A stretch of 64,000 nt of DNA from the human T2T-CHM13v2.0 reference genome, Homo sapiens. A program made the translations under genes and the position numbers. Location: positions 7,072,001-7,136,000 of the forward strand of contig CP068257.2 of NCBI GenBank assembly GCA_009914755.4, in the 5' to 3' direction. This document shows, one piece after another, positions 2,111 to 52,451 of this stretch (position 1 is its first letter; the number at the start of each line of letters is the position of its first letter). The notes below the pieces were generated by a model that searched no databases, was not told the DNA's origin, and saw only the letters and a list, made by a program, of their open reading frames with translations.

Positions 2111-2116
<6 letters not shown>

Positions 2117-3479: not shown

Positions 3480-3783
<304 letters not shown>

Positions 3784-23775: not shown

Positions 23776-23836
23776 ATCACTTCTCGGCCTTTTGGCTAAG
23801 ATCAACTGTAGTGTCTGTTGTTATTAATATAATATT
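23776..23836 (+). pseudogene. U2 snRNA pseudogene, 5' ~60 nt only (3'-truncated)
   Basis: ATCACTTCTCGGCCTTTTGGCTAAGATCAACTGTAGTGTCTGTTGTTATTAATATAATAT versus U2 snRNA 5' end ATCGCTTCTCGGCCTTTTGGCTAAGATCAAGTGTAGTATCTGTTCTTATCAGTTTAATATCTG. Flanked by ~24-bp direct repeats TATTCAACCAAT(A/T)T(G)CAATACAA at 23737-23761 and 23838-23862. Degenerate continuation to ~23910 is possible ('tatctgata...aaatggactttttt'). Confidence 0.6.
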
Positions 23837-29032: not shown

Positions 29033-29120
29033 TCTTTGTTTTTGTCAAGTTTTTGAGGTGTAAGTGTTCTTTATATACTCGATATTAAGCAAGACCCTGT
29101 CTCTTAAAAAAAAATGATAC

Positions 29121-29414
29121 GGCCAAGCGCGGTGGCTCATGCCTGTAATCCCAGCATTTTGGGAGGCTGAGGTGGGTGAATCACCAGAGGACAGAAGTTG
29201 GAGAGCAGCCTGGACAACCTGGTGAAACCCCATCTCTACTAAAAATACAAAATTAGCCAGGTGTGGTGGCACATGCTTGTGATCCCAGGAACTTGGGAGG
29301 CTGAGGCAGGGAGAATTGCTTGAATTTGGGAGGCAGAGGTTGCAGTGAGCTGAGATCATGTCACTGCACTCCAGCGTTGGACAACATAACGGAATCTCCA
29401 TCTCAAAAAAAAAA
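29121..29414 (+). mobile_element. Alu SINE, the last interspersed repeat before the satellite
   Basis: GGCCAAGCGCGGTGGCTCATGCCTGTAATCCCAGCATTTTGGGAGGCTGAGGTGGGTGAATCACCAGAGGACAGAAGTTGGAGAGCAGCCTGGACAACCTGGTGAAACCCCATCTCTACTAAAAATACAAAATTAGCCAGGTGTGGTGGCACATGC...tctcaaaaaaaaaa. Confidence 0.9.
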
Positions 29415-29755
29415 GCTATTAGTCCCTTACCAGATATACGATTTGCAAATATTTTCTTACATTCTGTAGGTTGTCTTGTCCTGAAACTGCATGTCATTTT
29501 TTTATGCTCTTTTATTTTTTGTTCTTACTGTTTCCTCTTTTATTTGTCTAAGCACTTTAAGTAATATTCTTTTGGGTGTTATATAATCATTCAACTGTCT
29601 GAAATCCAATTCACCCACTTTTTTCCTATTGACTATTTCTCATGATGGATTATTTCTTCAGATATTTTGTAACATTTGCTTAACTGGTTTTAAATTATGA
29701 AAATTGAGAAAGATTCTTTGCTTCATGAAATTTGGTCAGGCTCCTAAACCTTCTC

Positions 29756-32700
29756 TGGAATGGAATAGAATGAAATGGAATGGAGTTGAATGGGATGGAA
29801 TGGAATGGAATGGACTCGAATGAAATGGAATGGAATGGAGTCGAATGGAAAAGAACGGACTTGAATGGAATGGAATGGAATGGAAAGGAATGGAATGGAA
29901 TGGACTCAAAAGGAATGGAATGGAATGGACTCAAGTGGAATGGAATGGACTCGAATGCAATAGAATGGAATGGAATGGACTTGAATGGAATGGAATGGAA
30001 TGGAATGGAATGGAATGGACAGGAATGCAATGGAAGGGAATGGAATGGAATGCACTTGAATGGAATAGAATGGAAAGGAATGGAATGGACTGGAGTGATA
30101 TGGAATAGAAAGGACTCGAATGGAATGGAATGGACTATAGTGGAATGGAATGGAATAGAATGGACTCGAATGGAATGGAGTGGAATGGATTCGAATGGAA
30201 TGGAATGGAATTGAATGGATTCTAGTCAAACGGAATGTAATGGTATGGAATGGACGTGAATGGAATGGAATGGAATGGACTCGAATGGAATGAAATGGAA
30301 TGGAATTGACAGGAATAAAATGGAAAGGAAGAGATTGGAACGGATTGGAATGGAAAGGAATGGAATGCAATGGACTCGAATGCAATGGAATGTACTCGAA
30401 TGGAATGGAATGGAATGCAATAGAATGGACTCGAATGGAATAGAGCAGAATTTACTGGATTGGAATCTAATGGTATAGAGTCTAATGGAATGGAATGGAA
30501 TGGATTCGAATGGAATAGAATGGAATGGAATGGACTCGAATGGAATGGAATGGAATGGACAGAAAAGGTATGGAATGGAATGGGATGCAATGGAATTGCC
30601 TGGAGTGGAAGGGAATGGAATGGAGTGGAATGGAACGGAATGGACTTGAAGGGAATAGAATGGAATGGAAAGGAATGGACTCGAATGAAATGGAATGGAA
30701 AGGACTCAAATGCAATAGAATGGATTCGAATGTAATGTAATGTAATGGAATGGACTCGAATGGAATGGACTCAAGAGGAATGGAACGGAGTGGACTCGAA
30801 TGAAATGAAATGCAGGGGAAGGAACTCGAATGGCATGCAATGGAATGGAATAGACTCGAATGGAATGGAATGGAATGGACTCGAATGGAGTGGAAAGGAA
30901 TGGATCCGAATGGAAAGGAGAGGAATGGAATGGAATAGCATGGAATGGAATGGAATGGAATGGAATGGAATGGAATGGAATGGAATAGAATGGAATGGAA
31001 TAGAAGGGAATGGAATGGATTTTAATGGAATGGAATGGAATGGAATGGAATGGACTCGAACGGAGTGGAATGGAATCGAATGGAATGGAATGGAATGGAT
31101 TCGAGTGGAATACAGTGGAATAGTGTCGAATGGAATTCAAATGAATAAACACCAATGGAATGGAATGGACTTGAATGGAAAAGAAAGGAAATGACTCGAG
31201 TGGAATGGAATGGAAAGCAATAGAAAGGAAAGGAAATGACTCGAGTGGAATGGGATGGAATGGAATGGAATGCGCTCGAATGCAATGGAATGGAATTGAC
31301 TCGAATAGAATAGAAAGGAATGGACTCGAATAGAATGGAATGGAATGGAATGGGCTCGAATGCAATGGAGTGAAATGGACTCAAATGGAGTGGAAAGGAC
31401 TTAAATGGACTGGAATCGAATAGAATGCAACGGACTCGAATGGGATGGAATGGAAAGGACACGAATGGAACGGAATGGAATGAAATGGAATGGAATGGAT
31501 TGGAATGGAATGGGATGGAATGGAATGGAATGAAATGCAATGGGATGGTATGGTATGGATTGGAATGGACTTGAATGGAATAGAAAAGGATGGAATGGAA
31601 AGGAATGCATTTAAAAAGAATGGAATGGAATGGAATCCAATGGAATGGAAAGGCCACGAACTGAATGGAATGTAATGGAAGGGAATCGAATGGAATAGAT
31701 TGGAATTTAGTGGAATGGAATCTAATGGAATGGAATGGAATGGATTCGAATGTAATAGAATGGAATGGAATGGATTCGAATGTAATAGAATGGAATGGAA
31801 TGGAAAGGAATGTACTGTAATGGAATGGAATGGAACCAAATGGAATCGAATGGAATGGAATTTAAAAGATTCGATTGGAATGGAATGTACTCAAATGGAA
31901 TGGAATGGAATGGAAACAACTCGAGTGGAATGAAATGGAATGGAATGGAATCAAATGTAATGGAAAGGGATTGAATGGACTCGAATGGAATGGAATGGAA
32001 AGGAATGGCATGGTCTCGAGTGGAATGGAACGGAATGCAACTCAGTGGAATCGAATGGAATGGAATTGACTCAAATAGAATTGAATGGAATGGACCAGAA
32101 TGGAATTAAATGTAATGGAATGGACACACATGAAATGGACTCGAATGGAATGGAATGGAATGAAAAGGAATGGAATGGAATGGAATGATTTCGAATGGAA
32201 TGACATGGAATGATTTCGAATTGAATGACATGGAAAGGACTCGAATGGAATGGGTTGGGATTGGATGGTCTCGAATGAAATTGAATGGAATGAACTCAAA
32301 TGGAATGGAATGGAATAGAATGGACAAGAATATAATGGAATGGAATTGGCTCGAATGGAATGGAATTGATTCGAGTGGAATGGAATGGACATGAAAGGAA
32401 TAGAATGGAATGGACTCGAATGGAATGGAATGGACTCAAATGGAATGGAATGGAATGGACTCAAATGGAATAGAGTGGAATGGAATGGAATCGAATGCAA
32501 TGGAATGGAATGGACTCAAACAGAATGGAATGGACTCCAGTGGAATGGAATGGAATGGTATGGTCTCAAATGGAATGGAATGGAATGGAACAGATTCAAA
32601 TGGAATAGAATGGAATGGAATCAAATCTAATAGAGTGGAATGGAATGGACTCGAATGGAATGGAGAGTAATGGAATCGAACGGAAAGGAATGGAATTTAA

Positions 32701-35700
32701 TGAATTCCAATGGAATGGAGTGGAATTGAATGGACTCAAAAGAAATGGATGGGAATGCAATGAAATGGACTGGACTGGAAAGGAATGGAATGGAATGGAC
32801 TCGAATGGAATGGAAGGGACTCGAATGGAGTGGAGCCGAATGGATTCAAATGGAAGGTAATGGAAAGGAATGGAATGAACTCGAATGTAATGGAATGGAC
32901 TTGAATGGAATGGAAGGGACTCAGAGTGTAGCCGAATGGATTTGAATGGAATGGAATGGAATGGAATGGAATGAACTCGAATGGAATGGAATGTAATGGA
33001 ATGAAATGGACTCGAATGGAATGGCATGGAATGGAGTCGATGGAAGGGAATGGAATGGAATGGCATAAAATGGAATGGAATGGACTCAAATGTAATGCAG
33101 TTGAATAGAATGTACCTGAAAGGAATGGAGTGGAATGGAATGCAATGAAATGGACTCGAACGGAATGGAATGGAATGGAATGGAATGGAATGGACTCAAA
33201 TGAAATGGAATGGACAGGAAACGAATGGAATGGAATAGAATCGACTCGAGTGGAATGGAAGGGAATGGACTCGAATGAAATGGAATGCAGTGGAATAGAC
33301 TGGAATGGAATGCAATGGAATGAAATAAACTCGAATGGAATGGAATGGACTCGAATAGAAGGGAATGGAATGGACCTGAATGGAATGGAATGGAATGGAA
33401 GGGAACAGAATGGAAAAGAATGGATTGGAATAGAATGGAATGGAATCAAGTGAACTCAAATGGAATGGAATGGAATGGACTCGAATGGAATAGAATGGAA
33501 TTTACTGGATTGGAATCTAACAGAATTGACTCTAAAGAAATGGAATGGAATGCACCCGAATGGAAGCGAATGGAATGGAATGGACTCGAATGGAATGGAA
33601 TGGAATGGAATGGAATGGAATGGAATGGAATGGAATGGAACTGAATGGAATGGAGTTGAATGCAATAGAATGGAATGGACTCGAATGAAATCGAATGGAA
33701 TGGAGTCAAATGGAATGGAATGGAATGGAATGGACTCAAAAGGAATGGAATGGAATGGAATCAAGTGGAATGGAATGGACTCGAATGCAATAGAATTGAA
33801 TGGAATTGAATCGAATGGAAATGAATGAAATGGACAGGAATGGAATGGAATGGAATGGAATGGAATGGAATGGAATGGAATGGAATGGAAAGGGATGGAC
33901 TGAAATGGAATGGAATGGAATGGACTGAAATGCAATGGAATGGACTTGAATGGAATAGAATGGAAAAGAATGGAATGGACTCGAATGATATGGAATACAA
34001 AGGACTCGAATGGAATGGAATGTACGCTAGTGGAGTGGAATGGGATAGAATGGCCTCAAATGGAATGGAGTGGAATGGATTCGAATGGATTGGAATGGAA
34101 TTCAATGGATTTGAGTCAAACGGAATGTAATGGTATGAAAATGGACTCGAATGGAATGGAATGGAATGGACTTGAATGGAATGGAATGGAATGGAATGGA
34201 AAGGAATAAAATGGAATGGAATAGAATGGAATGGAATAGAATGGAATGGACTTGAATGCAATGGAATGGATTCGAATGGAATAGAGAGGAATTTACTGGA
34301 TTGGAATCTAATGCTACGGACTCTAACGGAATGGAATGGAATAGACTCAAAAGGAATAGAAAGGAAGGGAATGGACTCGAATGGAATGGAATGAAATGGA
34401 CACGAAAGGTATGGAATGGAATGGGATGGAATGGAAGGGACTGGAATGGAAGGGAATGGAATGGAGTGGAATGGAACGGAATGGACTTAAATGGAATAGA
34501 ATAGAAAGGAAAGGAATGGACGCAAATGAAATGGAATGGAAAGGACTCAAATGCAATGGAATGGATTCGAATGGAATGGAATGGACTTGAATGTAATCGA
34601 ATGGAATGGACTCAAGTGGAATGGAATGGAGTGGACTCGAATGAAATGGAATACAGGGGAAGGAACTCGAATGGCATGCAATGGAATGGAATAGACTCGA
34701 ATGGAATGGGATGGAATGGAATCGAATGGAGTGGAATGGAATTGACACGAATGGAATGGAACGGAATGGGATGGAATGAAATGGAATGGAATGGAGAGGA
34801 ATGGAATGGAATGGAATGGAGAGGAATGGAATGGAATGGAATGGATTGGAATAGAATGGAAAGGAATGGAATGGAATAGAAAAGGAAGGTAATGGAATGG
34901 AATGGAATAGAATGGAATGGAATGGATTTTAATGGAATGAATTGGAATGGAATGGAGTCAAATGGAGTGGAATGGACTCGAATTGAATGGAATGGAATGG
35001 AATGCACTCGAGTGGAATAGAGTGGAATTGACTCGAATGGAATTCAATGGAATGAACTCCAATGGAATGGAATGGACTCGAATGGAATGGAAACGACTCG
35101 AGTGGAATGGAATGGATTGGAAAGGAATGGAAAGGAAATGACTGGAGTGGAATGGAATGGAATGGAATGGAAGGTACTCGAATGGAATGGAATGGAATTG
35201 ACTCGAATGGAATAGAAAGGAATGGACTCGAATAGAATAGAATGGAATGGAATGAACTCAAATGCAATGGAGTGGAATGGACTCGAATGGAATGGAAAGG
35301 AACTAAATGGACTGGAATCAATTGGAATGCAACAGACTCGAATGGAATGGAATGGAAAGGACATGAATGGAATGGAATGGAATGGAATGGAATGGAATGG
35401 AATGGAATGCTATGGGATGGTAAGATTTGGATTGGAATGGACTTGAATGGAATAGAAAGGGATGGAATGTAATGAATTTAAACAGAATGGAATGGAATCG
35501 ACTCCAATGGAATGGAAAGGCCACGAATTGAATGATATGGAATGGAACAGACTGGAATGCAATAGATTGGAATTTAGTGAAATGGACTCTGATGGAATGG
35601 ACTGGAATGGAATCGAATGTAATACAATGAAATGGAATGGAAAGGAATGTAATTTAATAGAATGAAATGGAATCAAACGGAATGGAATTTAAAGGACTTG

Positions 35701-37500
35701 AATGGAATGAAATGTACTCAAATGGAATGGGATGGAATGGAAACGACTTGAGTGGAATGAAATGGAATGCAATGGAATTGAATGAAATGGAATGGGATTG
35801 AATGGACTTGAATGGAATGGAATGGAATGGCATGGTCTCGAATGGAATGGAATGCAATTGAATGGACTCAAAAGGAATGAAATAGAATTGACTCGAATGG
35901 AATTGAATGGAATGGACCAGAATGGAATTAAGTGTGATGGTATGGACACGAATGAAATGGAAAGGAATGGTCTCAAATGGAATAGAATGGAATGGAATGG
36001 AATGGAATGATTTCAGATCAAAGGACATGGAATAGACTCGAACGGAATGGGTTCGGATTGGATGGTCTCGAATGTAATGTAATGGAATGGACTCAAATGG
36101 AATGGAATGGAATAGAATGGACTCGAATATAATAGAATGGAATTGGCTCGAATGGAATGGAATGGATTCGAGTGGAATGGAATGGTCACGAATGGAATAG
36201 AATGCAATGGATTCGAATGCAATGGAATGGAATTGAATGGACTCTAATGGAATGGAATGGACTTGAATGCAATGGAATGGAATGGATTCGAATGGAATGA
36301 AATGGACTCCAGTGGAATGGAATGGAATGGTATGGTCTCAAATGGAATGGAACGGATTCAAATGGAACAGAATGGAATGGACTCGAATCTAATGGAGTGG
36401 AATTGAATGGACTCAAATGGAATGGAGGCTAATGGAATTGAGTGGAATGGAAAGGAATTTAAAGGACTCAAATGGAACGGAATGGAATTGAATGGACCCA
36501 AAAGTTATGGATTGGAATGGACTCGAATGGAATGGAATGGAATGGACTCGAATGGAATGGAAGGGACTCTAATGAAATGGAATTGAAAGGAATCCACTCG
36601 AGTGAAAAGGAATAAAATGGAATGGAATGCACATGAATGGAATGGAATGGAGTTGACTCGAAAGGAATAGAAAGGAATGGACTCGAATGGAATGAAATAG
36701 AATGCAATGGACTCGAATGGAATAGAGTGGAATAGAACCGAATGGAAAAGAATAGAATAGAGTCGAATTGAATGAAGTGGAATGGAATGAACAAGAATGG
36801 AATTGAGTGGAATGGACTCGAAGAGAATGGAATCGAATTGAAAGGACAGGAATGGAATGGAATGCAATGGAATGGAATGGAATGGAAAGGAATGGAATGG
36901 AAAGGAATGGAATCGAATGGAATGGAACGTAATGGAATGAAATGGACTCGAATGGAATGGAATCCAATGGAATGGACAGGAATGAAATAGAATGGAAATG
37001 AAAAGAATGGAATGGAATGGACTCAATGGAAATCAACTGAATTGAATGGACTCGAAAGGAATGGAATGGAATGGAATGGAATGGAGTGGAATGATATGGA
37101 CTTGAATAGAATGGAATGGAATAAAATGGAATGGAATGGTGTCGAATGGGAGTGAATGGAAAGCAATGGAATGGACTCAAATGGAATGGAATGGAATTGA
37201 CACAATTGGAATAGAATGGAATGGAATAGACTCTAAAGGAATGGAATGGAATGGACACGAAACATATGGAATGGAATGGGATGGGATAAAATGGACTGGA
37301 ATGGAAGGGAATGGAATGGAGTGGAATGGAATGGAATGGAATTCAATGGAATAGAATGGAATGGAATAGACTCTAAAGGAATGGAATGGAATGGACACGA
37401 AACATATGGAATGGAATGGGATGGGATAAAATGGACTGGAATGGAAGGGAATGGAATGGAGTGGAATGGAATGGAATGGAATTCAATGGAATAGAATGGA
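29756..37500 (+). repeat. Two diverged copies of a ~3.85-kb higher-order repeat (copy A ~29,756-33,640, truncated at the array edge; copy B ~33,645-37,500)
   Basis: Colinear similarity at a constant offset of ~3.81-3.90 kb across the whole interval. Examples: 29,775-29,990 vs 33,645-33,830; 30,445 'gaatttactggattggaatctaatgg' vs 34,287; 30,650-30,800 vs 34,500-34,650; 31,310-31,470 vs 35,213-35,370; 32,215-32,400 vs 36,020-36,200. Also seen as similar artifactual ORF translations at the same offsets. Confidence 0.75.
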
Positions 37501-37504
37501 ATGG

Positions 37505-39240
37505 AATGGAATGGATTCGAATGAAATGGAATGGAAAGGACTCGAATGCAATAGAATGGATTTGAATGTAATGTAATGGAATGGAATGGACTCAAAACGA
37601 ATGGAACGGAATGGACTCAAGTGGAATGGAATGGAATGGACTCGAATGGAATAGAATGGAATGGAATGGAATGTACTCGAATGGAATGGAATTGAATGGA
37701 CACGAATGGAATGGAATGAAGTGGAATGGAATGAACTGGAATGGAATGGAATGGAGTGGAATGAAAAGGAATGGACTTGAATTGAATAGAATGGAGTGGA
37801 ATGGAATGGACTCGAATGAAATGAAATGGAAAGGACCTCAATGCAATGGAATGGACTAGAATGGAATGTAATGGATTGGTATGGACTCGAATGGAATGGA
37901 ATAGAATGGACTAAAGAGGAATGAAATGAAATATATTCGAATGGAATATAATGGAAAGGAAAGGGCTCGTATGGAATGGAATGGACACGAATGGAATGGA
38001 ATGGAGAGGAATGGAATGGACTGGAATGGAATGGAATGGAACGGAAAGGAATGGAATGAAATGGAATGGGCTAGAATGGAAGAGAATGGAATGGAATGGA
38101 ATGAACTCGAATGAAATGGAGTGGAATGGACTCGAATGGAATGGAATGGATACGAGTGGAATGGAATGGAATCGAATGGAACGGAATGGAAAGGAATCAA
38201 ATGGAATTTAATGGAATGGAATGGAATGGAATGGAAAGGAATGGACTCGAATGGAATGCAGTGGAATGGATTCGAATGGAATGGAATGGAATGAAAGGGA
38301 ATCGAAGAAATGGAATGGAATGGAATGGACTCGAATGAAATGGAATGTAAAGGACTCGAATGCAAAGGAATGGAATCAAATGTAATGTAATGGAATGGAC
38401 TAGAATGGAATGGAACGGAATGGACTCAAGTGGAATGGAATGGAATGGACTCAAATGGAATAGAATGGAATGGAATGGAATGTACTCGAATGGAATGGAA
38501 TTGAATGGACATGAATGGAATGGAATGAAGTGGAATGGAATGGACTGGAGTGGAATGGAGTGGACTGGAATGGAATGGAATGGAGTGGAATGGAATGGAG
38601 TGGAATGGAAAGGAATGGAAATGAACGGAATAGAATGGAGTGGTATGGAATGGACTCGAAGGAAATGGAATGGAAAGGATTGAATACAATGGGATGGACT
38701 CGAATGGAATGTAATGGATTGGAATGGACTCGAATGGAATGGAATGGAATGGACTAAAGAGGAATGAAATGAAATATATTCGAATGGAATATAACGAAAA
38801 GGAAAGGGCTCATATGGAATGGAATGGACACGAATGGAATGGAATGGAATGGACTGGAATGGAATGGAATGGAGTAGAATGGAATGGAAAGGAATGGAAT
38901 GGAATGGGCTAGAATGGAATAGAATGGAATGGAATGGAATGCACTCGAAATAAATGGAATGGAATGGACTCGAATGGAATGGAATGGACATGAGTGGAAT
39001 GGAATGGAATCGAATGGAAAGGAATGGAAAGGAATCAAATGGAATTTAATGGAATGGAATGGAATGGAATGGACTCAAATGGAATGCACTGGAATGGATT
39101 CGAATGGAATGGATTGAAACTGAATGGACTCGAGTCGAACGGAATGTAATAGTAAGGAATGCACTCAAATGGAATGGAATTTAATGGAATGGAATGAAAG
39201 GGACTTGAAGAAATGGAATGGAATGGAATGGAATGGAATG
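37505..39240 (+). repeat. Two copies of a ~0.83-kb repeat block (37,505-38,340 and 38,340-39,240), related to a sub-segment of the 3.85-kb unit
   Basis: 37,581-37,760 vs 38,399-38,580 ('...MEWNGMYSNGMELNGHEWNGMKWNGM...' in both ORF translations); 37,926 vs 38,769 (MKYIRMEYN...); 38,140-38,330 vs 38,980-39,240. Contains a perfect 2x140-bp tandem duplication at 37,211-37,490 just upstream. Confidence 0.7.
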
Positions 39241-40321
39241 GAATAGAATGCAATGGAATGGACAAGAAAGGAGTGCAGTTGAATTGAATGGACCCAAAAG
39301 GAATGGAATGGAATGGAATGGAAGGCAGTGGACTCGAACAGAATGCAACGGAAATGACTAAAATGGAATGGAATGGACTCGAATGGAATGGAATGGAATG
39401 GAATGGACTCGAAAGGAATGGCATGGATTGCACCCGAATGGAATGGAATGTTATGGAAAGTAAAGGACTCGAATGGAATGGAATGGAATGGAATTCACCC
39501 AAATGGAGTGGAATGGAATGCAATGGACTCGAATTGAATGGAACGCAATGGACAAGAATGGAATGGAATGGAATGGAATAGAATGGACTGGAATGGAATA
39601 GCTTGGAATGGAATGGACTTGAATGCAATGGAATGTAATGGACTCGAAAGGAATGGAATGGACTCAAACGGAATGGAGTGGACTGGGCTCAAATGGAATG
39701 GAATGGAATGGAATGGTCTCGAGTGGAATGGAAAGTAACAGAAGGGAATGAATTCGAATGGAATAGAATGGATTCAAATGGAATAGAATGGATACGAATG
39801 GAATGGAATGGAATGGATTAAAATGAAATGGAATGGAATGGAATCGACTCGAATGAAATGGAATGCAGTGGAATGGACTGGAATGGCATGCAATGGAATG
39901 GAAGAAACTTGAATGGAATCAAATGAACTCGAATGGAAGGGAATGGAATGGTTGCGAATGGAATGGAATGGAACGGAATGGCATGGAATGTAATGGAATA
40001 GAATGGAATAGAATTGATTAGAAAGGATTGGAATAGAATGGAATGGAATGGAATAGACTGAAATGGAATGGAATGCAATGGACTCGAATTGAATAGAGTG
40101 GGATATACTGGATTGGAATTTAATGGAATTTGACACTAATGAAATGGAATGAAATGGACTCAAATGAAATCAAATGTAGTGGAATGGACTCGTATGGAAT
40201 GGAATGGACACGAATGAAATGGAATGGAATGGAGTTGAATGGAATGGAATGGAATGGAATGGAAGGGAATGGAGTTGAATGGAATAGAATGGAATGGACT
40301 CGAATGAAATGGAATGGAATG
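39241..40321 (+). repeat. Copy 1 of a near-identical ~1.08-kb duplicated satellite block
   Basis: Colinear with 40,783-41,867 at offset ~1,542 bp, estimated 98-99% identity by eye, with a few substitutions and one GGAATGG indel. Confidence 0.85.
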
Positions 40322-40782
40322 GCCTCGAATGGAATGGAATGGAATGGAATTGACACTAATGGAATTGAAGGGAATGGACCCGAATGGAATGGAATGGACT
40401 TCAATTGAATGCAGTGGAATTCATTGGGCTCAAATGGAATGGAATGGAATGGAATGGAATGGAATGGAATGGAATGGAAAAGAATGGAATGGAATAGAAT
40501 GGAATGGGATTGAATGGAATGGACATGAATGTAATGGAATGGACTCAAATGGAATAGCATGGAATGGAATGGAATGGACTCAAGTGGAATAGCATGGAAT
40601 GGAATGCACTTGAATACAATGGAGTGGAATGGACCCGAATGGAATAGAATGGCATTGAACGGATTCAAATGCAATGGAACGTAACGGAATAGAATGAACT
40701 CGAATGGAATGTAATGTAACGGAATGAAATGTGTTCAAACGCATTGTAATACAATGGAATAGAATGGAATGGAATGGAATGG

Positions 40783-41867
40783 AATAGAATGCAATGGAAT
40801 GGACAAGAAAGGAGTGCAGTTGAATAGAATGGACCCAAAAGGAATGGAATGGAATGGAATGGAAGGCAGTGGACTCGAACAGAATGCAACGGAAATGACT
40901 AAAATGGAATGGAATGGACTCGAATGGAATGGAATGGAATGGACTCAAAAGGAATGTCATGGATTGCACCCGAATGGAATGGAATGTTATGGAAAGTAAA
41001 GGACTCGAATGGAATGGAATGGAATGGAATTCACCCAAATGGAGTGGAATGGAATGCAATGGACTCGAATTGAATGGAACGCAATGGACAAGAATGGAAT
41101 GGAATGGAATGGAATGGAATAGAATGGACTGGAATGGAATAGCTTGGAATGGAATGGACTTCAATGCAATGGAATGTAATGGACTCGAAAGGAATGGAAT
41201 GGACTCAAACGGAATGGAGTGGACTGGGCTCAAATGGAATGGAATGGAATGGAATGGACTCGAGTGGAATGGAAAGTAACAGAAGGGAATGAATTCGAAT
41301 GGAATAGAATGGATTCAAATGGAATAGAATGGATACGAATGGAATGGAATGGAATGGATTAAAATGAAATGGAATGGAATGGAATCGACTCGAATGAAAT
41401 GGAATGCAGTGGAATGGACTGGAATGGCATGCAATGGAATGGAAGAAACTTGAATGGAATCAAATGAACTCGAATGGAAGGGAATGGAATGGTTGCGAAT
41501 GGAATGGAATGGAACGGAATGGCATGGAATGTAATGGAATAGAATGGAATAGAATTGATTAGAAAGGATTGGAATAGAATGGAATGGAATGGAATGGAAT
41601 AGACTGAAATGGAATGGAATGCAATGGACTCGAATTGAATAGAGTGGGATATACTGGATTGGAATTTAATGGAATTTGACACCAATGAAATGGAATGAAA
41701 TGGACTCAAATGAAATCAAATGTAGTGGAATGGACTCGTATGGAATGGAATGGACACGAATGAAATGGAATGGAATGGAGTGGAATGGAATGGAATGGAA
41801 TGGAATGGAAGGGAATGGAGTTGAATGGAATAGAATGGAATGGACTCGAATGAAATGGAATGGAATG
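40783..41867 (+). repeat. Copy 2 of the near-identical ~1.08-kb duplicated satellite block
   Basis: See copy 1. Homology stops at ~41,867 ('gactcgaatgaaatggaatggaatgg' then divergent), so this is a duplicated block, not a strict tandem repeat. Confidence 0.85.
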
Positions 41868-44800
41868 GAGTTGAATGGAATGCAATGGACTCAAATGGAT
41901 TGGAATGGCATGGACACGAATGGAATGAATTGGAATGGCATGGACAACAATGGAATGGAATGGACTTGAATGGAATGGACTAGAATGGAATAGAATGGAA
42001 TGGAATGGAGTTGAATGGAAGAGAATCGAAGGGAATGGAATGGACTTGAATGGAAGAGAAGCGAAGGGAATGTAATAGACTCGAATGAAATGGAATTGAA
42101 TGGACTCGAATGGAATGGGAAGGATTCGAATGGAATAGAATGGACTCGAATGGAATGGAATGGAATGGACTGTAATGGAATCGAATGGAATTCAGTGGAA
42201 TGGAAGTTAATGGAACGGAATGAAATGGAATGGACTTGAATCAAATAGTATGGAAACGAATGGAATGGACTCCAATGAAATGGAATGGAATGGACTCTAA
42301 TGGAATGGAATTGACTCGACTGGAATGGAATGAAATGGAATGGACTCAAATAAAATGGAGAGGAATGGATTCGAAAGGAATGGAAAGGAATTGACTACAA
42401 TGGAATGGAAAGGAATGGACTCAAATGGATTTGAATATAATGGAATGGAATAGAGTGGAATGGAATCGAATGGAATTCGAATGGAATTGAATGGACTCGA
42501 ATCAAATGGAATGTAATGGACTGGAATGGACTCGAAAGGAATGGAGTTGAAAGGAGTCTAATGGAATGGAATGGACTCGAATGGAATAGAATGGAATGGA
42601 ATGGAACTAAAAGGAAGGGAATTGAATGGACATGAAATGTATGGAATGCAATGGAACGGACTGGAATGGAATGGAAAGGAATGGATTGAAATGGAATGGA
42701 ATTGACGTTAATGGAATAGAATGGAATGGAATGGAATGTACTCGAATGGAATGGAATTGAATGGACATGAATGGAAAGGAATGAAGTGGAATGGAATGGA
42801 ATGGGATGGAATAGGATGGAATGGGATGGAATGGAATGGAATGAAATGGACTGGAATGGAATGGAATGGAATGGAGTGGAAAGGAAAGGAATGGACTTGA
42901 ATGGAATAGAATGGAGTGGAATGGAATGGACTCGAATGAAATTGAATGCAAAGGACTTGAAAGCAATGGAATGGACTTGAATGAAATGTAATGGATTGGA
43001 ATGGGCTCGAATTGAATGGAATGGAATGGACTCAAGAGGAATGGAATGGAATAGAGTCGAATGTAATATAATGGAATGGAATGAGCTCGAATGGAATGGA
43101 ATGGAGTGGAATGGAATGGACTAGAATAGAATGGAATGGAATGGAATGGACTTGAATGGAGTAGAAAGGAATAGAAGGGAATGGATTCGAATGAAATGGA
43201 ATGGAATGGATTCGAATGGAATGGACACGAGTGTAATGGATTGGAATGGACTCAAGTGGAATGGAATTGAATCGAATGGAATGGAGTGGAATGGATTCGA
43301 ATGGAATGGAATGGAATTGAATGGACTCGAGTTGAATGGAATGTAATGGTAAGGAATGGGCTCGAATGGAATGGAATGGAATGGAATCAAAGGGACTCGA
43401 ATGAAATGGAATGGAATGGAATGAACTCGAATTAAATGTGATGGAATGTAATGGAATGGAATGGACACAAATGGTATGCAGTGGAATTGAATTGACTCGA
43501 AAGGAATGGAATGGAATGGAATGGACTCGAAAGGAAAAGAATGGAATGGAATGGAGTGGAATGGAATGGAATTGAGTGGAATGGAATAGAATGGAATGGA
43601 ATGGACTCCAATGGAATGGAATGGTCTCGAAGGTAATTGAATGGAATGAAAGCGACTCAAATGGAATTGAATGGAATGGAATGGACTCTAATGGGATAGA
43701 ATGGAATTGAATGGATTCTAATGGAATCGAATGCGCTGGAATGGATTGCAGTTGAATTGAATGGATCTGAAAAGAATGGAATGGAATGGTCTGCAATAGA
43801 ATGGAATGGAGTGGAATGGAATGGAATGGAACAGAATGGACTTGAATGGGATGCAAAGGAATGGACAGGAGTCTAATGGAATGGAATGGAATGGACCCAA
43901 ATGGAATGGAATGGAATAGAATGAAATGGAATGGAATGGACTTGAATGGAATGTAATGGACACGAATGGAATGGAATGGAAGGGGATGGAATGGAATGGA
44001 ATGGAATGGAAAGGAATGGACCAGAATGGAATGCAATGGAATGGACTGGAATGGAATGGAATGGTATGGAAAGGAATGGACTTGAATGGAATGGATTGGA
44101 ATGGACTCGAAAATAATGGAATGGAATAGATTCGAACGGAATGGAATGGACACAAATGGAACGGAATGTAATGGAATGCACTCGAATGGAATACAATGGA
44201 ATTAAATTGAATATGCTCTAATGGAATGGAATGGAATGGAATGGACTAGAATGGAATGGAAAGAAATAGAGTCGAATGGATTGGAATGCAATGGAATATA
44301 CTCAAATGGAATTTAATGGAATGGACTAGAATGAAATTGAATGGACTGGAATGGAATGCAGTTAAATTGAATGGACACGAAAGCAATGGAATGGATTGGA
44401 ATGGAATGGAATGGAATGAAATGGAATGAAATGGACTCAAAAGGAATGCAATGGGATGGAATAGACTCGAATGGAATGGAGTGGAATAGAATGGAAAGGA
44501 CTCGAATGGAATGGAATGGACACGAATGGAATGGAATGGAATCGACTCAAACTGAATGGAATGGACTCGAATGGAATGGAATAGAATGGAATTGAGTCTA
44601 AAGGAATTGAATGGAATGTACCCGAATGGAATGGAATGAAATGGATTGTTCTCGAAAGGAATGGAATGGAAGGAATGGAATGGAATGGAATGGAAGGAAT
44701 GCAATGGAATGGAACGGAATGGAATCGAATAGAATGGAGCCGAAGGGACTCGAATATAATGGAATGGAATTGAATGGACTGGAATGGAATGGAATGTAAA

Positions 44801-47800
44801 GAAATGGAATGAACTCGAATGGAATGGAATGTAATGGAATGAAATGTACTCGAACGGAATGGAATGGAATGCAATGGACTCGAGTGGAATGGTATGGAGT
44901 GGCATGGAATGGCATGGAATAGAATGGAAATGACTGAAATGGAATGCAGTTGAATTGAATTGACCTGAAAGGAATGGAATGGAATGGAATGGAATGCAGT
45001 GGAATGGAAAAGAAAGGAATGAAATGCACTCGAATGGAATGGAACGGTACAGAATGGACTCAAATGAAATGGAATGGACCCAAACGAAATGTAATGGAAT
45101 GTAATTGACTCCAGTGCAATGGAATGGAATGGACTCGAATGAAATGGCATGCAGTGGAATGGACTGGAATCGCATGCAATGGAAAGGAATAGACTCAAAT
45201 GGAATGGAAGGGAATGGAATGGACTCTAATGTAATGGAATGGACACGAATGGAATGGAAAGGAATGGAATAGAGTTTAACAGAATGGAATGACATGGATT
45301 GGAATATAATGGAATGGAATGGAATGGACTCAAATGGAATGTAATGGAATGGACTCGAATGGAATAGAAAGGAATTTACTGTATTGGAGTCTAATGGAAT
45401 GGACTCAAATGTAATGCAAAGGAATGGAATCGAATGGAATCAAATGGAATCGAATGGATTCAAAGGGAATGAAATGGAATGGAAAGGAATGGAATGAAAT
45501 GGAATGGAATTGTGCTGAATGGAATAGAATGGAATGGAATGGACTCGAATGAAATGGAATGGAATGGAGTCGAATAGAATGGAATGGACTCGAATGGAAT
45601 GGAATGGACTCAAGTGGAATGGAAATAAATAGCTTCGAGTGCAATAGAAGGTAATGGAATGGACTCGAAAGGAATTTAATGGAATGGAGTCGAATGGAAT
45701 GGAATGGAATGGAACGGAATATACTTGTATGGAATAGAAATGAAAGGAATGGAATGGACTCGAATGAAATTGAATAGAATGGAAAGGAATGTAATGGACA
45801 CGAATAGAATGGAATGGAAACAACTAGAGTGAAATGGAATGGTATGGAATTGAATGCACTCAAATGGAACGGAATGGAATTGACACTAATGGAATAGAAA
45901 GGAATGGACTCCAATGGAATGCAATGGAGTGGAATGGACTCTAATGGAACGGAGTGGAATGGATATGAACGTAATGGAATGGATTGGAATGGAATGGAAT
46001 GGAATGGACTTGAATGGAATAGAATGGAAAGGAATGGAATGGACTAGAATGAAATGGAAAATAATGGACTCGAATGGAATGGAATAGACTCCAATGGATT
46101 GGAATGGAATGGACTCAAAAGGAATGGAATGGAATGGAATGGACTCAAGTGGAATGGAATGGAATGGACTCGAATGTAATAGAATGGAATGGAATAGAAT
46201 GGAATGGAATGGACTCGAATGGAATGCAATGGACATGAATGGAAAGTAATGGAATGGAATAGAATGGACTGTAATGGAATCGAATGCAATGCAATGGAAT
46301 GGAATGGAATGGAAAGGAATGGACTTGAATGGAATAGATTGGAAACGAATGGAATAGACACGAATGAATTGGAATGGAACAGAATCTAATGGAATGGAAT
46401 TGACTTGACTGGAATGGAATGAAATGGAATGGACTCAAGTGGAATGGAGTGGAATGCAAACGAAAGGAATGGAATAGAATTGACTAGAATGGAATAGAAA
46501 GGAATGGACTCGAATGGATTGGAATATAATGGAATGGATTCAAATGGAATTAAGTTAAATGGAATCGAAAGGAATTCGAATGGAATTGAATGGACATGAA
46601 TGGAATGGAATGGAATGGAATGGACTCGAAAGGAATGGAGTGGAAATGACATGAATGGAATGGAATGGACTCGAATGGAATGGAATGGACTTAAGTGGAA
46701 TAGAATGGAATGGACTCAAATTGAATGGAATGGACTCGAATGGAACAGAATGGAATGGAATGGAATGTACACGAATGGAATGAAATTGAATGGACAAGAA
46801 TGGAATGGAATGGAATGGAATGGAAAGGAATGGCACGGAATGGAATGGAATTGACTGGAATGGATAGCAATGGACTTAAATGGAATACAATGGAGTGGAA
46901 GGGAATGGACTCGAATGAAATGGAATGGAAAGGACTTGAAAGCAATGGAATGGACTCGAATGGAATGTAATGGATTGGATTGGAATGGACTTGAATGGAA
47001 TGGAATGGAATGAACTCAACAGGATTGGAATGGAGTAGACTCAAATGGAATATAATGGAAAGGATTGGGCTCGAGTGGAATGGAATGGACATGAATGGAA
47101 TGGAATAGGGTGAAATGTAATGGATTATAAAGGAATGGAATGGACTTGAATGGAATAGAATGGAATGGAAAGGAATGGACTCAAATGAAATGGAATGGAA
47201 TGGACTTGAATGGAATGGAATGGACACGAGTGGAATGGAATGGAATGGACTCGAAAGAATGGAATGGAATTCAATTGAATAGAATGGAAAAGAACAGGAA
47301 GGAATGGAATGGAATGGAATGGACTCGAACGGAATGGAGTGGAATGGATTCGAATGGAATGGAATGGACTCGTATTTAATGGAATGGAATGCAATGACAG
47401 GGACTCAAATGAAATGGAATGGAATGAAATGTACTCGAATTTAATGCAATGGATTGTAATGGAATGGAATGGAATCAAATGGTATGGAATGGAATTGACT
47501 GGAATCGAAAGGAATTGAACAATATAGAATGGACTCAAAAGGAATGGAATGGAATTGAATGGAATGGAATGGAATGGAATGGACTCGAATGGAAGGGAAT
47601 GGAATGGACTCCAAAGGAATGAAATAGTCTTGAAGGGAATAGAATGGAATGAAAACGACTAGAGTGGAATGGAATGGAATGCAATGGACTCTAATGGGAT
47701 AGAATGGGATTGAATGGACTCTAATGGAATGCAATAGTATGGAATAGAACGGAATGGACTGGAATGGAATGGAATGCAGTTGAATTGAAAGGATCCGAAA

Positions 47801-50800
47801 AGAATGGAAAGGAATGGAATAGAATGGAATGGAATGCGAAGGAATGGAATTGAGTGGGATGGAATGGAGTGGAAAGGACTCTAATGGAATGGAATGGAAT
47901 GGACTCGAATGGAATGGAATGGAAGAGAATGGACTTGAATGAGATGGAATGTAATGGAAAGGACTCTAATGGAATGAAATGTAATGGACCCAAATTAATG
48001 GAATGGAATGGAATGGAATGGAAAAGGTATGGAATGGAATTGACCCGAATGGAATGGAATGGACTCAAATGGAATGAAATGTAATGTAATGGAATGGAAG
48101 GGACTCGAATGGAATGGAAGGGAATGGACTCGAAAGGAATGGAATAGAATGGAAAGGAATGGAATGGATTCTAATGGAAAGGAATTGAAAGGAAACAACT
48201 TGAGTGAAATGGAATAGTATGGAATGGAATGCACTCAAATGGAATGGAATGGAATGGAATCTAATGGAATCGAAAGGAATGGACTCCAATGGAATTGAAT
48301 AGAGTGCAGTAAACTCGAATGGAATGGAGTGGAATGTATATGAATGGCATGGAATGGAATGGATTGGAATGGAACGGAATGGACTTGAATGGAATAGAAT
48401 GGAAGGGAATGGAATGGACTCGAAGGAAATGGAAAAGAATGCACTTGAATGGAATGTAATGGACTCAAATGTATTGTAATAGAATGGACTCGAATGGAAT
48501 GGAATGCAATGGAATGGACTCAAGTGGAATGCAATGGACTCGAATGGAATAGAATGGACTCGAATGGAATGGAATGGACACGAATGGAAAGTAATGGAAT
48601 GGAATGGAATGGACTCTAATGGAATCGAATGGAAAGTAATGGAATGGAATGGAATGGAGTGTAATGGAATGGAATGGAGTGGAATGGAATGGAAAGGAAT
48701 GGACTTGAATGGAATAGATTGGAAACGAATGGAATAGACTCGAATGAATTGGAATGGAATGGACACCAATGGAATAGAATTGACTCGACTGGAATGGAAT
48801 GAATTGGAGTGGACTCAGATGCAATGGAGTGGAATGGATTCGAATGGAATCGAATGGAATTGAGTAGAATGGAATAGAAAGTAATGGACTCGAATGGATT
48901 GGAATATAATGGAATGGACCCAAATGGAATGGAGTGGAATGGATTCGAAAGGAATTCGAATGGAATTGAATGGATTTGAATTGAATGGAATGGACTAGAA
49001 AGGAATGGAGTGGAATGGACTCGAATGGAATTTAATGGACTCGAATGGAATGGAATGGACCGTAATGGAATGGAATGGAATTGAGTGGAATGGAATTGAG
49101 TGGAATGGAATTTAATGGAATGGAGAGGAATGGAATGGAATGGAATGGAATGGAATGGAATGGAATGGAATGGAATGGAATTCAATAGAATGGACTGGAA
49201 TGGAATGGAATGGAATGGAATTCAATAGAATGGACTGGAATGGATTGGAATTGAAAGGAATGGAATGGTCTTGAATGCAGTGGAATGGACTCCAATGGAA
49301 TGGAATGGAATGCAATGGAATGGACTCGAATGTATTTGAGTGGAATTTACTGGATTGGAATCTAATGTTATGGACTCTAATGGACTGGAATGGAATGTCC
49401 TCAAATGGAATAGAATGGAATGGAATGGACTTCAATGGAAAGGAATGGAATGGACATGAAACGTATGGAATGGAATTGGATGGAATGGAATGGACTGGAA
49501 TGGAAGGGAATGGAATTGATTGGAATGGAACGCAATGGACTTGAATGAAATAGAATTGAATGGAATGGAATGGACACGAATGAAATTAAAAGGAAAGTAT
49601 TCAAATGCAATGCAATGGACTCGAATATAATGGAATGGAATGGAATCAAATCGAATGGAACAGAATGGAATGGAATGGAATGGAATGGAATGTACTTGAA
49701 TGGAACAGAATGGAATGTAATGGAATTTACTCAAATGGAATCGAATTGAATGGACACGAATGGAAAGGAATGAAACGGAATGGAATGGAATGGAACGGAA
49801 TGGAATGGAATGGACTGGAATGGAAAGGAAAGGACTTGAATGCAGTACAATGGAGTAGAAGGGAATGGACTCGAATTAAATGGAATGGAAAGGACTTGAA
49901 AGTAATGCAATGGATTCAAATGGAATGTATTGGAATGGAATGGACTCCAATGGAATGGAATGGAATGGACTCAAGTGGAATGGAATGGAATAGACTCGAA
50001 TAGAATATAATGGAAAGGATTGGGCTCGAATGGAATGGAATGGACACGAATGGAATGGAATAGAGTGAAATGGAATGGACTGGAATGGAATGGACTTAAA
50101 TGGAATACAATGCAATGGAAAGGACTGAACTGGAATGAAGTGGAATGGAAAGGACTTGAATGGAATGCAATGAACACGAGAGGAATGGAATGGAATGGAC
50201 TCGAATGGAATGGAATGGACTCGAATAGAATGGAGTTTAATGGATTCAAATGGAATGGAATGGAATTGAATGGACTCGAGTCTAATGGAATGTAATGGTA
50301 TGTAATGGACTCGAATGGAATGGAATGGAATGCAATCAAAGGGACTCGAATGAAATGTAATGGAATGGAGTTGAATTTAATGCAATGGATTCTAATGGAA
50401 CGGAATGGATTCAAATGTTACGGAACAGAATTGAATGGACTTGAAAGGAATTGAATGGAATGGAATGGACTCGATAGGAATGGAAAGGAAGGGAACCGAA
50501 TCGAATGGAAGGGAATGGAATGGAATCCAATGGAATGAAATGGTCTCGAAGGGAATGGAATGGAATGAAAATGACTCGAGTGGAATGGAATGGAATGGAA
50601 TGGAATGGAATGGAATGGAATGGAATGAAACGAAATGGACTCTAATGGGATAGAATGGCATTGAATGGACTCTAATGGAATGGAATGGAATGGACTGGAA
50701 TGAAATGCAGTTGAATTGAATGGATCTGAAAGGAATGGAACAGAATGGAATAGAATGGAATGGAATGGAATGGAATGGACTTGAATGGGATGGAATGGAA

Positions 50801-52451
50801 TGGAATGAAATGGACTCGAATGGAATACAATGGAATTTAAATGAATAGAATCTATTGGAATGGAATGGAATGGTCTCGAATGGAATAGAATGGAATAGAC
50901 TCGAATGGAATGGAATTAAATAGAATACAATGGACACGAATGGAATGGAATGGAATGCAATAACATGGAATGGTATGGATTGGAATGGATTTGAATGGAA
51001 CAGAATGGGAGGGAATGGAATGAATTCAAAAGGAAAGGAATGGAACGGAATGCAATGGAATGGAAAGGCCACGAGTGGAATGGAATGGAATGAAATAGAA
51101 TAGATTGCAATTTAGTGAAATGCACTCTAAATGAATTGAATGGAATGGACTTGAATGCAATAGAATGGAATGGAATCGAATGGAATGAAATGGAATGGAC
51201 TTGAATGGAAAAGAATAGAATGGAGTGGAACGGAATGGATTAGAATGGAATTGAGTTTAATAGACTCGAATGGAATGGAATGTAAGTAAAAGGACAGGAA
51301 TGGAAAGGAATGTAATGGAATGGAATGGAAAAGAATGGTATGGAAAGAATGGAATGCAATAGAATGGAATGGAATGGATTGGAATGGAATGGACTCGAAT
51401 GGAATGTAATGGAATCGACCCAAATAGAATGTAAAGGAATGGAATAGACTCGAAAGGAATGGAAAGGAATGGAATGGACTCGAATGGAATGGACTCGAAG
51501 GGAATGGTATGTAATGGCATCCAATGGAATGGAATGGAATGGACTCTATTGAAATAGAATGTACCCAAATGGAATGGAATGGAGTGGAATGGAATGGAAT
51601 GCAACGGAGAGGAATGGAGAGGAATGGAATGGAATGGAGAGGAATGGAATGGAATGGAATGGAATAGATTGGAATGGAATTGATTGGAATAGAATGGAAT
51701 GGAAAGGAATGGACTCAAACGGAATGGAATGCGGTCGAATGGAATGAAATGAAATGGAATGACCTCGAATGGAATAGAATGGAATTTACTGGATTGGAAA
51801 CCAATGGAATGGACTCGAATGGAATGGAATGGAATGGACTCGAATGGAATGGAATGGTATGGACTCGAATGGAATTAAATGGAATGGGATGGACTCGAAT
51901 GGAATGGAATGGAATGGACTCAAATGGAAAAAGAGTGGATTGGAACGGCCTCGAATGAAATGGAATGGAATGGAGTCAAATGGAATGGTATGGACTCAAA
52001 CGGAGTGGAGCCGAATGGATTCGAATGGAATGGACTGGAATGGAATGGAATGAATTCGAATGGAATGGAATGGAATGGAATGAAATGGACTCAAATGGAA
52101 TGGCATGGAAAGGACTCGAATGGAATGGAAAGAAATGGAATGGAATGGAATGAAATAGAATGGACCCGAAGGAAATGGAATGGAATAGAGTCGATTTGAA
52201 TGAAATGGAATGGAATGGTCCCGAATGAAATGGAATGCAGTGGAATCGACTGGAAAGGCATGAAATGGAATGGAATAAACTCGAATGGAATGGAATGGAG
52301 TCGAATGGAACGTAATGGAATGGACCCGAATGGAATGGAATGTAATGGAATAGAATAGAATGGAACAGAATGGATTGGAATAGAATGGAATTGAAAGGAG
52401 TGGACTCAAGTGGAATGGAATGGAATGGACTCGAATGGAATAGAATGGAAT

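What the first reader, a model, noticed from the sequence alone, without database searches (positions are those of the whole stretch)
29756..37500. ~3.85-kb higher-order periodicity at the array edge, with the second copy truncated
Blocks 29.76-33.64 and 33.65-37.5 kb are colinear over their full length at a constant ~3.85-kb offset, with roughly 85-95% identity by eye. The supplied ORF track shows this as pairs of similar pseudo-proteins at the same offset. Copy B stops about 0.9 kb short, and the next 1.7 kb is a ~0.83-kb unit repeated twice that derives from an internal part of the 3.85-kb unit (30.67 matches 34.52, 37.51 and 38.34). This is a mosaic signature of unequal crossing-over, not a simple pentamer array.
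Basis: seen in the sequence. Interest (0 to 1): 0.5.

Follow-up and report, generated by a model that had tools for sequence, protein, structure and literature searches.

The report
Patchwork kilobase repeats in satellite III
The 3.85-kb repeat is real, but it is about 1.8 old, diverged copies of a long unit at the edge of a primate satellite III (GGAAT)n array whose local repeat length changes every few kilobases, which is a known and ordinary property of these satellites.

Summary
Window 29,756-32,830 and 33,596-36,590 are colinear, with 90.3% identity in aligned columns and 31 indels, 21 of them multiples of 5 bp. The alignment score is 11.8 sd above 240 other placements in the same array. 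The offset drifts from 3,747 to 3,907 bp and is not constant. Copy B lacks the last 768 bp of the 3,840-bp unit. After a ~0.73-kb unassigned stretch, a 0.83-kb unit occurs twice (91% identity) and matches unit positions ~730-1,300.

The sequence is a diverged (GGAAT)n satellite III array that runs from 29,756 to the window end and abuts Alu-bearing flank. It is not an array-wide higher-order repeat. The dominant period is 3.8 kb at the edge, 1.5 kb at 37.5-52 kb and 1.85 kb at 51.8-58.3 kb. Fragments of the same unit, including its tail-to-head junction, recur at about six further sites. A 1.87-kb unit present three times is a deletion derivative of it.

The best explanation is repeated out-of-register duplication and deletion inside the array, most likely by unequal exchange or template switching. 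This matches the "nested tandem repeats" with locally varying periodicity already described for human HSat2/3. Subfamily and chromosome could not be assigned. Interest is low.

The parts
29756..64000 (+). Diverged (GGAAT)n satellite III-like array in one orientation, running off the window end
   Evidence: TRF reports period 5, 6,851 copies and 68% matches over 29,756-63,999. There are 70-92 GGAAT and 0-1 ATTCC per kb. GC skew jumps to +0.6 at 30 kb.
29756..32830 (+). Copy A, head and middle of the 3,840-bp unit (unit positions 1-3,075)
   Evidence: Colinear with 33,596-36,590 at 90.3% identity, z = 11.8.
32831..33595 (+). Tail of the unit (unit 3,076-3,840), present after copy A only. Its best relatives are at 55.6-56.4 kb (87.7%), 44.8-45.5 kb (87.1%) and 51.8-52.5 kb (85.3%).
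   Evidence: Tiles at 32,756-33,356 have their best hit at +22.85 kb. Identity matrix. Against the stretch after copy B it is 79.9% identical, which is background.
33596..36590 (+). Copy B, truncated at unit position ~3,072 (768 bp short)
   Evidence: BLAST chain against the unit: 1-1,356, 1,717-2,050 and 2,003-3,072. Tiles.
36591..37321 (+). Diverged pentamer stretch with no clear homologue. It overlaps a short ~145-bp local duplication (best tile hits 95% identity at +/-145 bp near 36.96-37.36 kb).
   Evidence: Tile hits here are weak and inconsistent. GGAAT density is ordinary.
37322..39010 (+). 0.81-0.84-kb unit present twice (37,350-38,180 and 38,160-39,010, 91.0% identity). The first copy matches unit positions 731-1,301.
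38956..41846 (+). Youngest event. A ~1.35-kb segment is repeated at a 1,541-1,546-bp offset and is 95-100% identical per 100 bp in the core. It carries a unit tail-to-head junction in each copy (99.5% identical to each other).
44772..45458 (+). Isolated fragment of the unit tail (unit 3,179-3,829), 87.1% identical to the copy A tail
51800..58279 (+). Three copies of a 1.85-1.88-kb derivative unit (unit ~3,030-3,840 joined to 1-~1,340). c1/c2 are 91.9% identical. The third copy reads on to unit position 2,022.
   Evidence: The spectrum peak is at 1,850 bp.
29045..29755 (.). Non-satellite flank abutting the array: an Alu with its poly(A) tail at ~29,045-29,415, then ~340 bp of AT-rich sequence. 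The AT-rich part looks like an old L1 fragment, but that is my recollection of the L1 ORF2 sequence and was not tested.
   Evidence: Sequence read. The ORF translation carries Alu-type and '...KKIFAN...GKGLI' strings. The same junction occurs in an independent contig at ~97.4% identity.

Best explanation
This is the proximal edge of a primate classical satellite III array, a diverged (GGAAT)n repeat. Its kilobase-scale structure is a patchwork of nested tandem repeats.

An ancestral long unit of about 3.8 kb was laid down head-to-tail at least a few times. It is recognisable by non-pentameric landmarks such as TTTACTGGATTGGAATCTAA.

Out-of-register duplications and deletions then reshaped it. 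Misaligned pentamer tracts offer homology everywhere, so the likely process is unequal sister-chromatid or homologue exchange, or replication template switching.

At the edge, one full unit and 80% of a second survive (copies A and B, ~10% diverged). Just beyond them a 0.83-kb internal piece was duplicated. Further in, a ~1.35-kb piece spanning the tail-to-head junction was copied very recently (about 97-99.5% identity over most of its length).

At 52-58 kb, a 1.87-kb derivative lacking unit positions ~1,340-3,030 was amplified to three copies.

Shown directly: the copies, their colinearity, their identities, the recurrence of the junction, the pentamer-register indels and the locally changing period.

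Inferred: the order of events and the molecular mechanism.

The open reading frames are artefacts. The structure records mutation history and nothing suggests it is a functional device.
For: - A/B colinearity: 90.3% identity and z = 11.8 against 240 in-array placements.
- Best-hit offsets: 14 of 15 tiles fall at +3.76-3.91 kb.
- Indels: 21 of 31 A/B gaps are multiples of 5 bp, which indicates slippage in pentamer register.
- Unit map: tail-to-head junction pieces lie at ~40.2, 41.7, 45.4, 52.5, 54.4 and 56.4 kb. Head pieces lie at 37.3, 42.7, 49.0 kb and elsewhere.
- Junction alignment: the seven junction copies share the same landmark string.
- Landmark motif: the 20-mer occurs 17 times against 0.02 expected by chance.
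- Graded identities point to successive events. Background is 77-82%, distant copies 84-88%, A/B 89-90%, c1/c2 92%, and the 40.2/41.7-kb pair 99.5%.
- The dominant period changes along the array: 3.75-3.9 kb, then 1.5 kb, then 1.85 kb.
- Published HSat3 clone units range from 584 to 3,564 bp (PMC4022460 Table S1).
Against: - The excess identity over background is modest for the older copies (84-88% against 77-82%), so some assignments of short fragments to unit positions may be wrong.
- Only one haplotype and 34 kb of an array of unknown total length were seen. The ancestral unit length, and whether the long form is ancestral or itself composite, are not settled.
- The landmark motif occurs at two main unit positions (696 and 3,746), ~790 bp apart across the unit junction, plus a weaker 2-mismatch match at ~1,951. 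This hints at a still older ~0.8-kb period.
- No breakpoint signature distinguishes unequal crossing-over from template switching or gene conversion.
- Species, chromosome and HSat3 subfamily could not be established with the available collections.
Confidence: 0.82

Rival explanations
1. A true chromosome-specific higher-order or nested repeat array with a ~3.85-kb period, comparable to the 3.56-kb DYZ1 unit. On this view the window shows only its degraded outermost copies.
For: The tail-to-head junction recurs at about six further sites, so the unit was iterated more than once. ~3.8-4.1-kb offsets also appear at 41.8-44.2 against 45.9-48.2 kb (85.5% identity).
Against: Within 34 kb only ~1.8 copies keep this period. 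Other periods dominate elsewhere. The identity between copies is ~90% or lower. Marker 24-mers for the known long-unit subfamilies HSat3A6 (DYZ1) and HSat3A5 (D15Z1) are absent.
Confidence: 0.1
2. A single one-off tandem segmental duplication of ~3.8 kb at the array edge, unrelated to the structure of the rest of the array.
For: A and B are each other's closest relatives (89-90%) and are adjacent.
Against: A third partial copy at 55.6-58.3 kb spans the same tail-to-head junction at 86% identity over 2.9 kb. The 1.87-kb units and several fragments derive from the same unit. The unit therefore predates, and extends beyond, the A/B event.
Confidence: 0.05
3. A chance or low-complexity effect. On this view any two stretches of a pentamer satellite align at ~80% identity, and the apparent 3.85-kb line is noise.
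For: Background identity between unrelated array segments is indeed high, at 77-82%.
Against: The score is 11.8 sd above 240 in-array placements. The best-hit offsets of 14 of 15 tiles are consistent. Rare 18-20-mers pile up at 3.77-3.90 kb.
Confidence: 0.01
4. An assembly artefact, in which a satellite segment was falsely duplicated or mis-joined by the assembler.
For: Satellite arrays are error-prone in assemblies. No read data were available here.
Against: The copies differ by ~10% substitutions and 31 indels, which is far beyond assembly error. An independent public contig carries the same flank-array junction.
Confidence: 0.02

Closest known systems
Nested tandem repeats (NTRs) of human satellites 2 and 3, as described in T2T-CHM13 (Altemose et al., bioRxiv 10.1101/2021.07.12.452052)
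   Same: - Diverged (CATTC/GGAAT)n organised into multi-kilobase units that are not whole numbers of equal monomers.
- The predominant unit length varies between ~100-kb subregions of one array, and expansions are local.
- The window shows the same behaviour at a finer scale.
   Different: Here the period changes every 5-10 kb, and the copies are few (2-3) and old (86-92%), apart from one recent event. Whether this particular array and unit are catalogued could not be checked.
DYZ1 (HSat3A6), the 3,564-bp satellite III unit of Yq12
   Same: It is a satellite III repeat with a unit of similar length, ~3.6 kb against 3.84 kb here.
   Different: The top HSat3A6 marker 24-mer has no match even with one mismatch. 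DYZ1 is a homogeneous, multi-megabase array of thousands of units, whereas only ~1.8 diverged copies occur here.
Cloned acrocentric and chr10 satellite III units (HSat3A1 pW-1 1,524 bp; HSat3A2 pK-1 806 bp and pE-1 1,748 bp; HSat3A5 1,800/3,600 bp)
   Same: The local periods in the window (1,541, 810-844, 1,850-1,880 and ~3,840 bp) fall close to these published sizes. The only subfamily marker with exact hits is that of HSat3A1, with 2 hits.
   Different: The resemblance is in size only. No clone sequences were available to align. Two exact hits of one near-consensus 24-mer in 34 kb do not amount to a classification.
Divergent alpha-satellite HOR margins and the layered expansion model of centromeric arrays
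   Same: [quoted passage not shown] Here the older, longer form sits at the edge and younger derived units lie further in.
   Different: This is a different satellite family with no fixed monomer. The layering here is an inference from one 34-kb sample.

Membership tests
Classical human satellite III (HSat3) | Long array of diverged GGAAT/ATTCC pentamers | tested here: met
   TRF gives period 5, 6,851 copies and 68% matches over 29,756-63,999. There are 70-92 GGAAT per kb.
Classical human satellite III (HSat3) | Lacks the HSat2-type CATTCGATTCCATTCGATGAT-like 23/26-bp structure | tested here: met
   The top markers for HSat2A1, 2A2 and 2B have 0 matches with up to 2 mismatches. CATCATCGAATGGAA has 0 matches.
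Classical human satellite III (HSat3) | Pericentromeric or acrocentric short-arm location in a hominoid genome | not testable with these tools
   No primate genome collection was available. The flank has Alus, a U2-like pseudogene and a CpG island, which is consistent with a primate but does not locate the window.
HSat3 subfamily A1 (Altemose 2014) | Enrichment of subfamily-specific 24-mers | tested here: inconclusive
   Only the single top marker per subfamily was available. The A1 marker has 2 exact and 36 one-mismatch hits, and the other 13 subfamily markers have 0 exact hits. The held copy of the full marker list is cut off within HSat2A1.
HSat3 B subfamilies | Interspersed CAACCCGA(A/G)T 10-mer (my recollection; the motif is visible in the HSat3B1 marker) | tested here: not met
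   No occurrences on either strand.
DYZ1 / HSat3A6 and D15Z1 / HSat3A5 long-unit arrays | Subfamily marker 24-mer present | tested here: not met
   HSat3A6: 0 exact and 0 one-mismatch hits. HSat3A5: 0 exact and 0 one-mismatch hits.
Array-wide higher-order or nested tandem repeat | Many consecutive head-to-tail copies at one period | tested here: not met
   There are ~1.8 copies at 3.84 kb. The dominant period changes to 1.5 kb and then 1.85 kb within 25 kb.
Array-wide higher-order or nested tandem repeat | The unit's end-to-start junction recurs, which shows the unit was iterated | tested here: met
   Seven junction-bearing copies were aligned and share landmarks.
Array-wide higher-order or nested tandem repeat | Copies much more alike than the units within a copy (typically >95% for active HORs) | tested here: not met
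   A/B are 90.3% identical against a background of 77-82%. Only the 1.54-kb pair reaches 98-100%.

The most novel reading that the evidence does not exclude
The array edge may preserve the ancestral long (~3.8-kb) unit, while shorter deletion derivatives (1.87, 1.54 and 0.83 kb) arise and amplify further in. If so, satellite III arrays would evolve by the same inside-out layering proposed for alpha satellite. The flank-array junction may also be old, being either duplicated elsewhere in the genome or conserved between species, because an independent contig carries it at ~97.4% identity.
Probability: 0.2. Interest if true: 0.3.

Novelty: already known. Interest (0 to 1): 0.1.

Why it matters
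It matters little beyond bookkeeping. It is a clean small-scale example of how satellite III arrays acquire and lose kilobase periodicities by local duplication and deletion. It also shows that a period read off one part of an array should not be taken as the array's repeat unit.

For annotation, the many 100-240-aa open reading frames in this region should be ignored. They come from a stop-free pentamer.

Comparing the junction and copies A and B across complete ape genomes and human haplotypes could help date the array edge. That would be a routine analysis.

Tried and rejected
It was repeated with coarser settings.
- The generic direct-repeat finder on 36.5-39.2 kb returned only 5/10/15-bp register shifts of the pentamer and gave no information on the kilobase structure.
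- The idea that copy B ends in an unusually pure GGAAT tract, which would suggest slippage had overwritten the tail, was rejected. GGAAT density there is ordinary, at 11-20 per 200 bp against an array mean of 15.4.
- Subfamily assignment from the published marker list failed. The stored file is truncated within HSat2A1, so only one marker per subfamily could be used.
- Six long ORFs in the flank CpG island were scanned against Pfam to name a neighbouring gene and so locate the window. There were no hits.
- A single scan of metagenome contigs for the flank-array junction found one short contig ending in adapter sequence. It confirms that the junction exists elsewhere but gives no location or species.
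- A ~1.9-kb internal half-period inside the 3.84-kb unit was considered, because 2 x 1.87 is about 3.8. It was rejected because tiles in 29.7-37 kb show no consistent ~1.9-kb offset. The 1.87-kb unit is instead the long unit minus positions ~1,340-3,030.
Full report
**What the window holds**

Bases 1-29,755 are ordinary primate-type sequence. It contains several Alu-like ORF translations, an Alu 3' end with a poly(A) tail at ~29,300-29,415, (CA)n microsatellites, a U2 snRNA-like element and a CpG island.

At 29,756 the sequence switches abruptly to a diverged (GGAAT)n array that runs to the end of the window. TRF reports period 5, 6,851 copies and 68% matches. There are 70-92 GGAAT and almost no ATTCC per kb. 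GC skew is +0.6 throughout.

HSat2 markers and the B-type CAACCCGAGT motif are absent. Of the fourteen published top subfamily 24-mers, only that of HSat3A1 has exact hits, and it has just two. I file the array as satellite III, A-type, with the subfamily unresolved.

**Checking the observation**

Rare 18-20-mers shared within the array pile up at offsets of 3.77-3.90 kb for positions 29.5-33.0 kb.

I cut the array into 400-bp tiles and found each tile's best non-self hit anywhere in the 34-kb array. Across 29,756-32,756, 14 of the first 15 tiles hit at +3,762 to +3,907 bp. The reciprocal holds for 33,556-36,156.

A global alignment of 29,756-32,830 against 33,596-36,590 has 2,570 matches, 275 mismatches and 367 gap columns in 31 gaps. 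That is 90.3% identity in aligned columns. Twenty-one of the 31 gaps are multiples of 5 bp.

The same segment aligned at 240 other positions in the array scores 773 +/- 67. At copy B it scores 1,560, so z = 11.8. The best other position, ~56.3 kb with a score of 1,052, turns out to be a third partial copy.

The off-diagonal line is therefore real and far beyond what pentamer similarity gives. Unrelated array segments are 77-82% identical by the same measure.

- The offset is not constant. It steps between 3,747 and 3,907 bp.
- The unit boundary is 33,595/33,596.
- The two blocks are colinear for ~3.07 kb, not 3.85 kb. The last 765 bp of the first unit (32,831-33,595) are only 79.9% identical to what follows copy B, which is background.
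- Between the end of copy B (36,590) and the 0.83-kb units (from ~37,322) lies ~0.73 kb with no clear homologue.
- The 0.83-kb pair is 91.0% identical.
It also maps to 49.57, 53.40, 57.28, 42.92 kb and other sites.
- The paired ORFs exist but translate to pentamer peptides such as ...HSIPFHSIPF....

**What the structure is**

I took 29,756-33,595 as a 3,840-bp reference unit and mapped the rest of the array onto it. The results in unit coordinates:

| Window position | Unit positions covered | Note |
|---|---|---|
| Copy B | 1-3,072 | truncated second copy |
| 37,322-37,912 | 731-1,301 | first 0.83-kb unit |
| 39,522-40,666 | 3,190-3,840, then 14-467 | tail running into head |
| 41,097-42,191 | tail running into head | near-identical twin of the piece above |
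| 44,772-45,458 | 3,179-3,829 | isolated tail fragment |
| 51.8-57.6 kb | ~3,030-3,840 joined to 1-~1,340 | 1.85-1.88-kb unit, three copies |

The third copy of the 1.87-kb unit reads on to unit position 2,022.

Aligning the seven tail-to-head junction copies shows a shared non-pentameric landmark...GAATTTACTGGATTGGAATCTAACGGAATTGACTCTAATGAAATGG.... The 20-mer TTTACTGGATTGGAATCTAA occurs 17 times in the array with up to 3 mismatches, against 0.02 expected by chance.

The unit was therefore iterated head-to-tail more than once. The 1.87-kb repeat is a deletion derivative of it, lacking unit positions ~1,340-3,030.

Pairwise identities are graded:

| Comparison | Identity |
|---|---|
| Background (unrelated array segments) | 77-82% |
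| Distant copies | 84-88% |
| A/B | 89-90% |
| c1/c2 | 92% |
| 40.2/41.7-kb pair | 99.5% |

An NTRprism-style spectrum gives a different dominant period in each part of the array. It is 3.75-3.9 kb in 29.76-37.5 kb, 1.5 kb in 37.5-52 kb and 1.85 kb in 51.8-58.3 kb.

**Mechanism**

Shown directly:
- adjacent and dispersed colinear copies of one unit;
- truncation of copy B;
- derivative units with internal deletions;
- indels mostly in pentamer register;
- a range of copy ages.

Inferred: these arose by repeated out-of-register exchange or template switching within the array. In a pentamer array, any misalignment by a multiple of 5 bp still offers extensive homology. Divergence followed each event. 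A single haplotype cannot separate unequal crossing-over from replication-based duplication or gene conversion.

The A/B divergence (~0.10 per site) implies an old event. I do not convert it to years, because no satellite-specific substitution rate is available here.

I found no evidence that the kilobase structure has a function of its own.

**Comparison with what is known**

Altemose et al. describe HSat2/3 as composed of multi-kilobase 'nested tandem repeats'. [quoted passage not shown]

Published satellite III clone units span 584-3,564 bp. They include 806, 1,524, 1,748, 1,800/3,600 and 3,564 bp (PMC4022460 Table S1). The periods seen here fall near several of these. That is a resemblance in size only, because no clone sequences could be aligned.

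The DYZ1 and D15Z1 markers are absent.

The window fails two defining features of an array-wide HOR, namely many consecutive copies and high identity between copies. It meets one, the recurrence of the junction.

**A related sequence from elsewhere**

One metagenome contig (OJNM01068417.1, 1,035 bp) carries the same flank-array junction. In the 309 bp of unique flank there are 7 substitutions and 1 indel (~97.4% identity). The first ~130 bp of satellite are nearly identical.

The contig diverges from the window at 29,447 and ends in Nextera adapter sequence, so it is a low-quality and possibly chimeric assembly. It shows that the junction is not unique to this assembly. It also shows that a ~2.6%-diverged version exists, which could be a paralogue or an orthologue in another primate. 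I cannot tell which.

**Verdict**

The phenomenon is already described and ordinary, so interest is low.

Noticed in passing
window 38,956-40,300 and 40,497-41,846: A ~1.35-kb segment is repeated at a 1,541-1,546-bp offset. The core runs at 95-100% identity per 100 bp, and 39,778-39,977 is identical. This makes it by far the youngest duplication in the array. The ~200 bp between the end of the first copy and the start of the second does not match what follows the second copy, so it is not a clean tandem duplication.
   Followed up: partly
window 51,800-58,279: A 1.85-1.88-kb unit is present three times (c1/c2 91.9% identical, c3 ~86%). It is the 3.84-kb edge unit minus unit positions ~1,340-3,030. 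The third copy continues into the deleted part.
   Followed up: yes
window 17,250-18,750: A strong CpG island (GC 0.69-0.76, CpG observed/expected ~0.8) lies ~11 kb from the satellite edge. It has long GC-rich ORFs on both strands, and none has a Pfam match. It may be a promoter of an unidentified gene or non-coding RNA.
   Followed up: partly
window 23,776-23,912 (+): A U2 spliceosomal RNA match from Rfam (61.4 bits, E = 5e-10). It spans model positions 1-192 in only 137 bases, so it is probably a truncated or deleted U2 pseudogene.
   Followed up: no
L001 (contig OJNM01068417.1) 1-500 against window 29,447-29,947: An independent metagenome contig carries the same flank-satellite junction at ~97.4% identity in the unique part. 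It diverges from the window at 29,447, next to the Alu poly(A) tail, and ends in Nextera adapter sequence. It could be a paralogous copy, another primate or a chimeric contig.
   Followed up: partly
window 30,451; 33,501; 34,292; 49,346; 61,389 (exact) and 12 near-matches: The non-pentameric landmark TTTACTGGATTGGAATCTAA occurs 17 times against 0.02 expected. Its two main positions in the 3.84-kb unit are 696 and 3,746, ~790 bp apart across the unit junction, with a weaker 2-mismatch match at ~1,951. This hints at an older ~0.8-kb periodicity beneath the 3.84-kb unit.
   Followed up: partly
window 29,756-64,000: CpG is not depleted in the array. There are 679 CpGs, with observed/expected 0.87. 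Most cytosines sit in (A/T)CGAAT variants of the pentamer. 58 of the 275 A/B mismatches are in a CpG context, and transitions (134) do not outnumber transversions (141).
   Followed up: no
window 41,823-44,167 against 45,917-48,185; 45,746-46,831 against 48,116-49,221; 46,696-47,874 against 49,656-50,805: Further overlapping old duplications at offsets of ~4.0-4.1, 2.37-2.39 and 2.93-2.96 kb (85.5-87% identity). They form an interleaved pattern in the 42-51 kb region that was not resolved into events.
   Followed up: no
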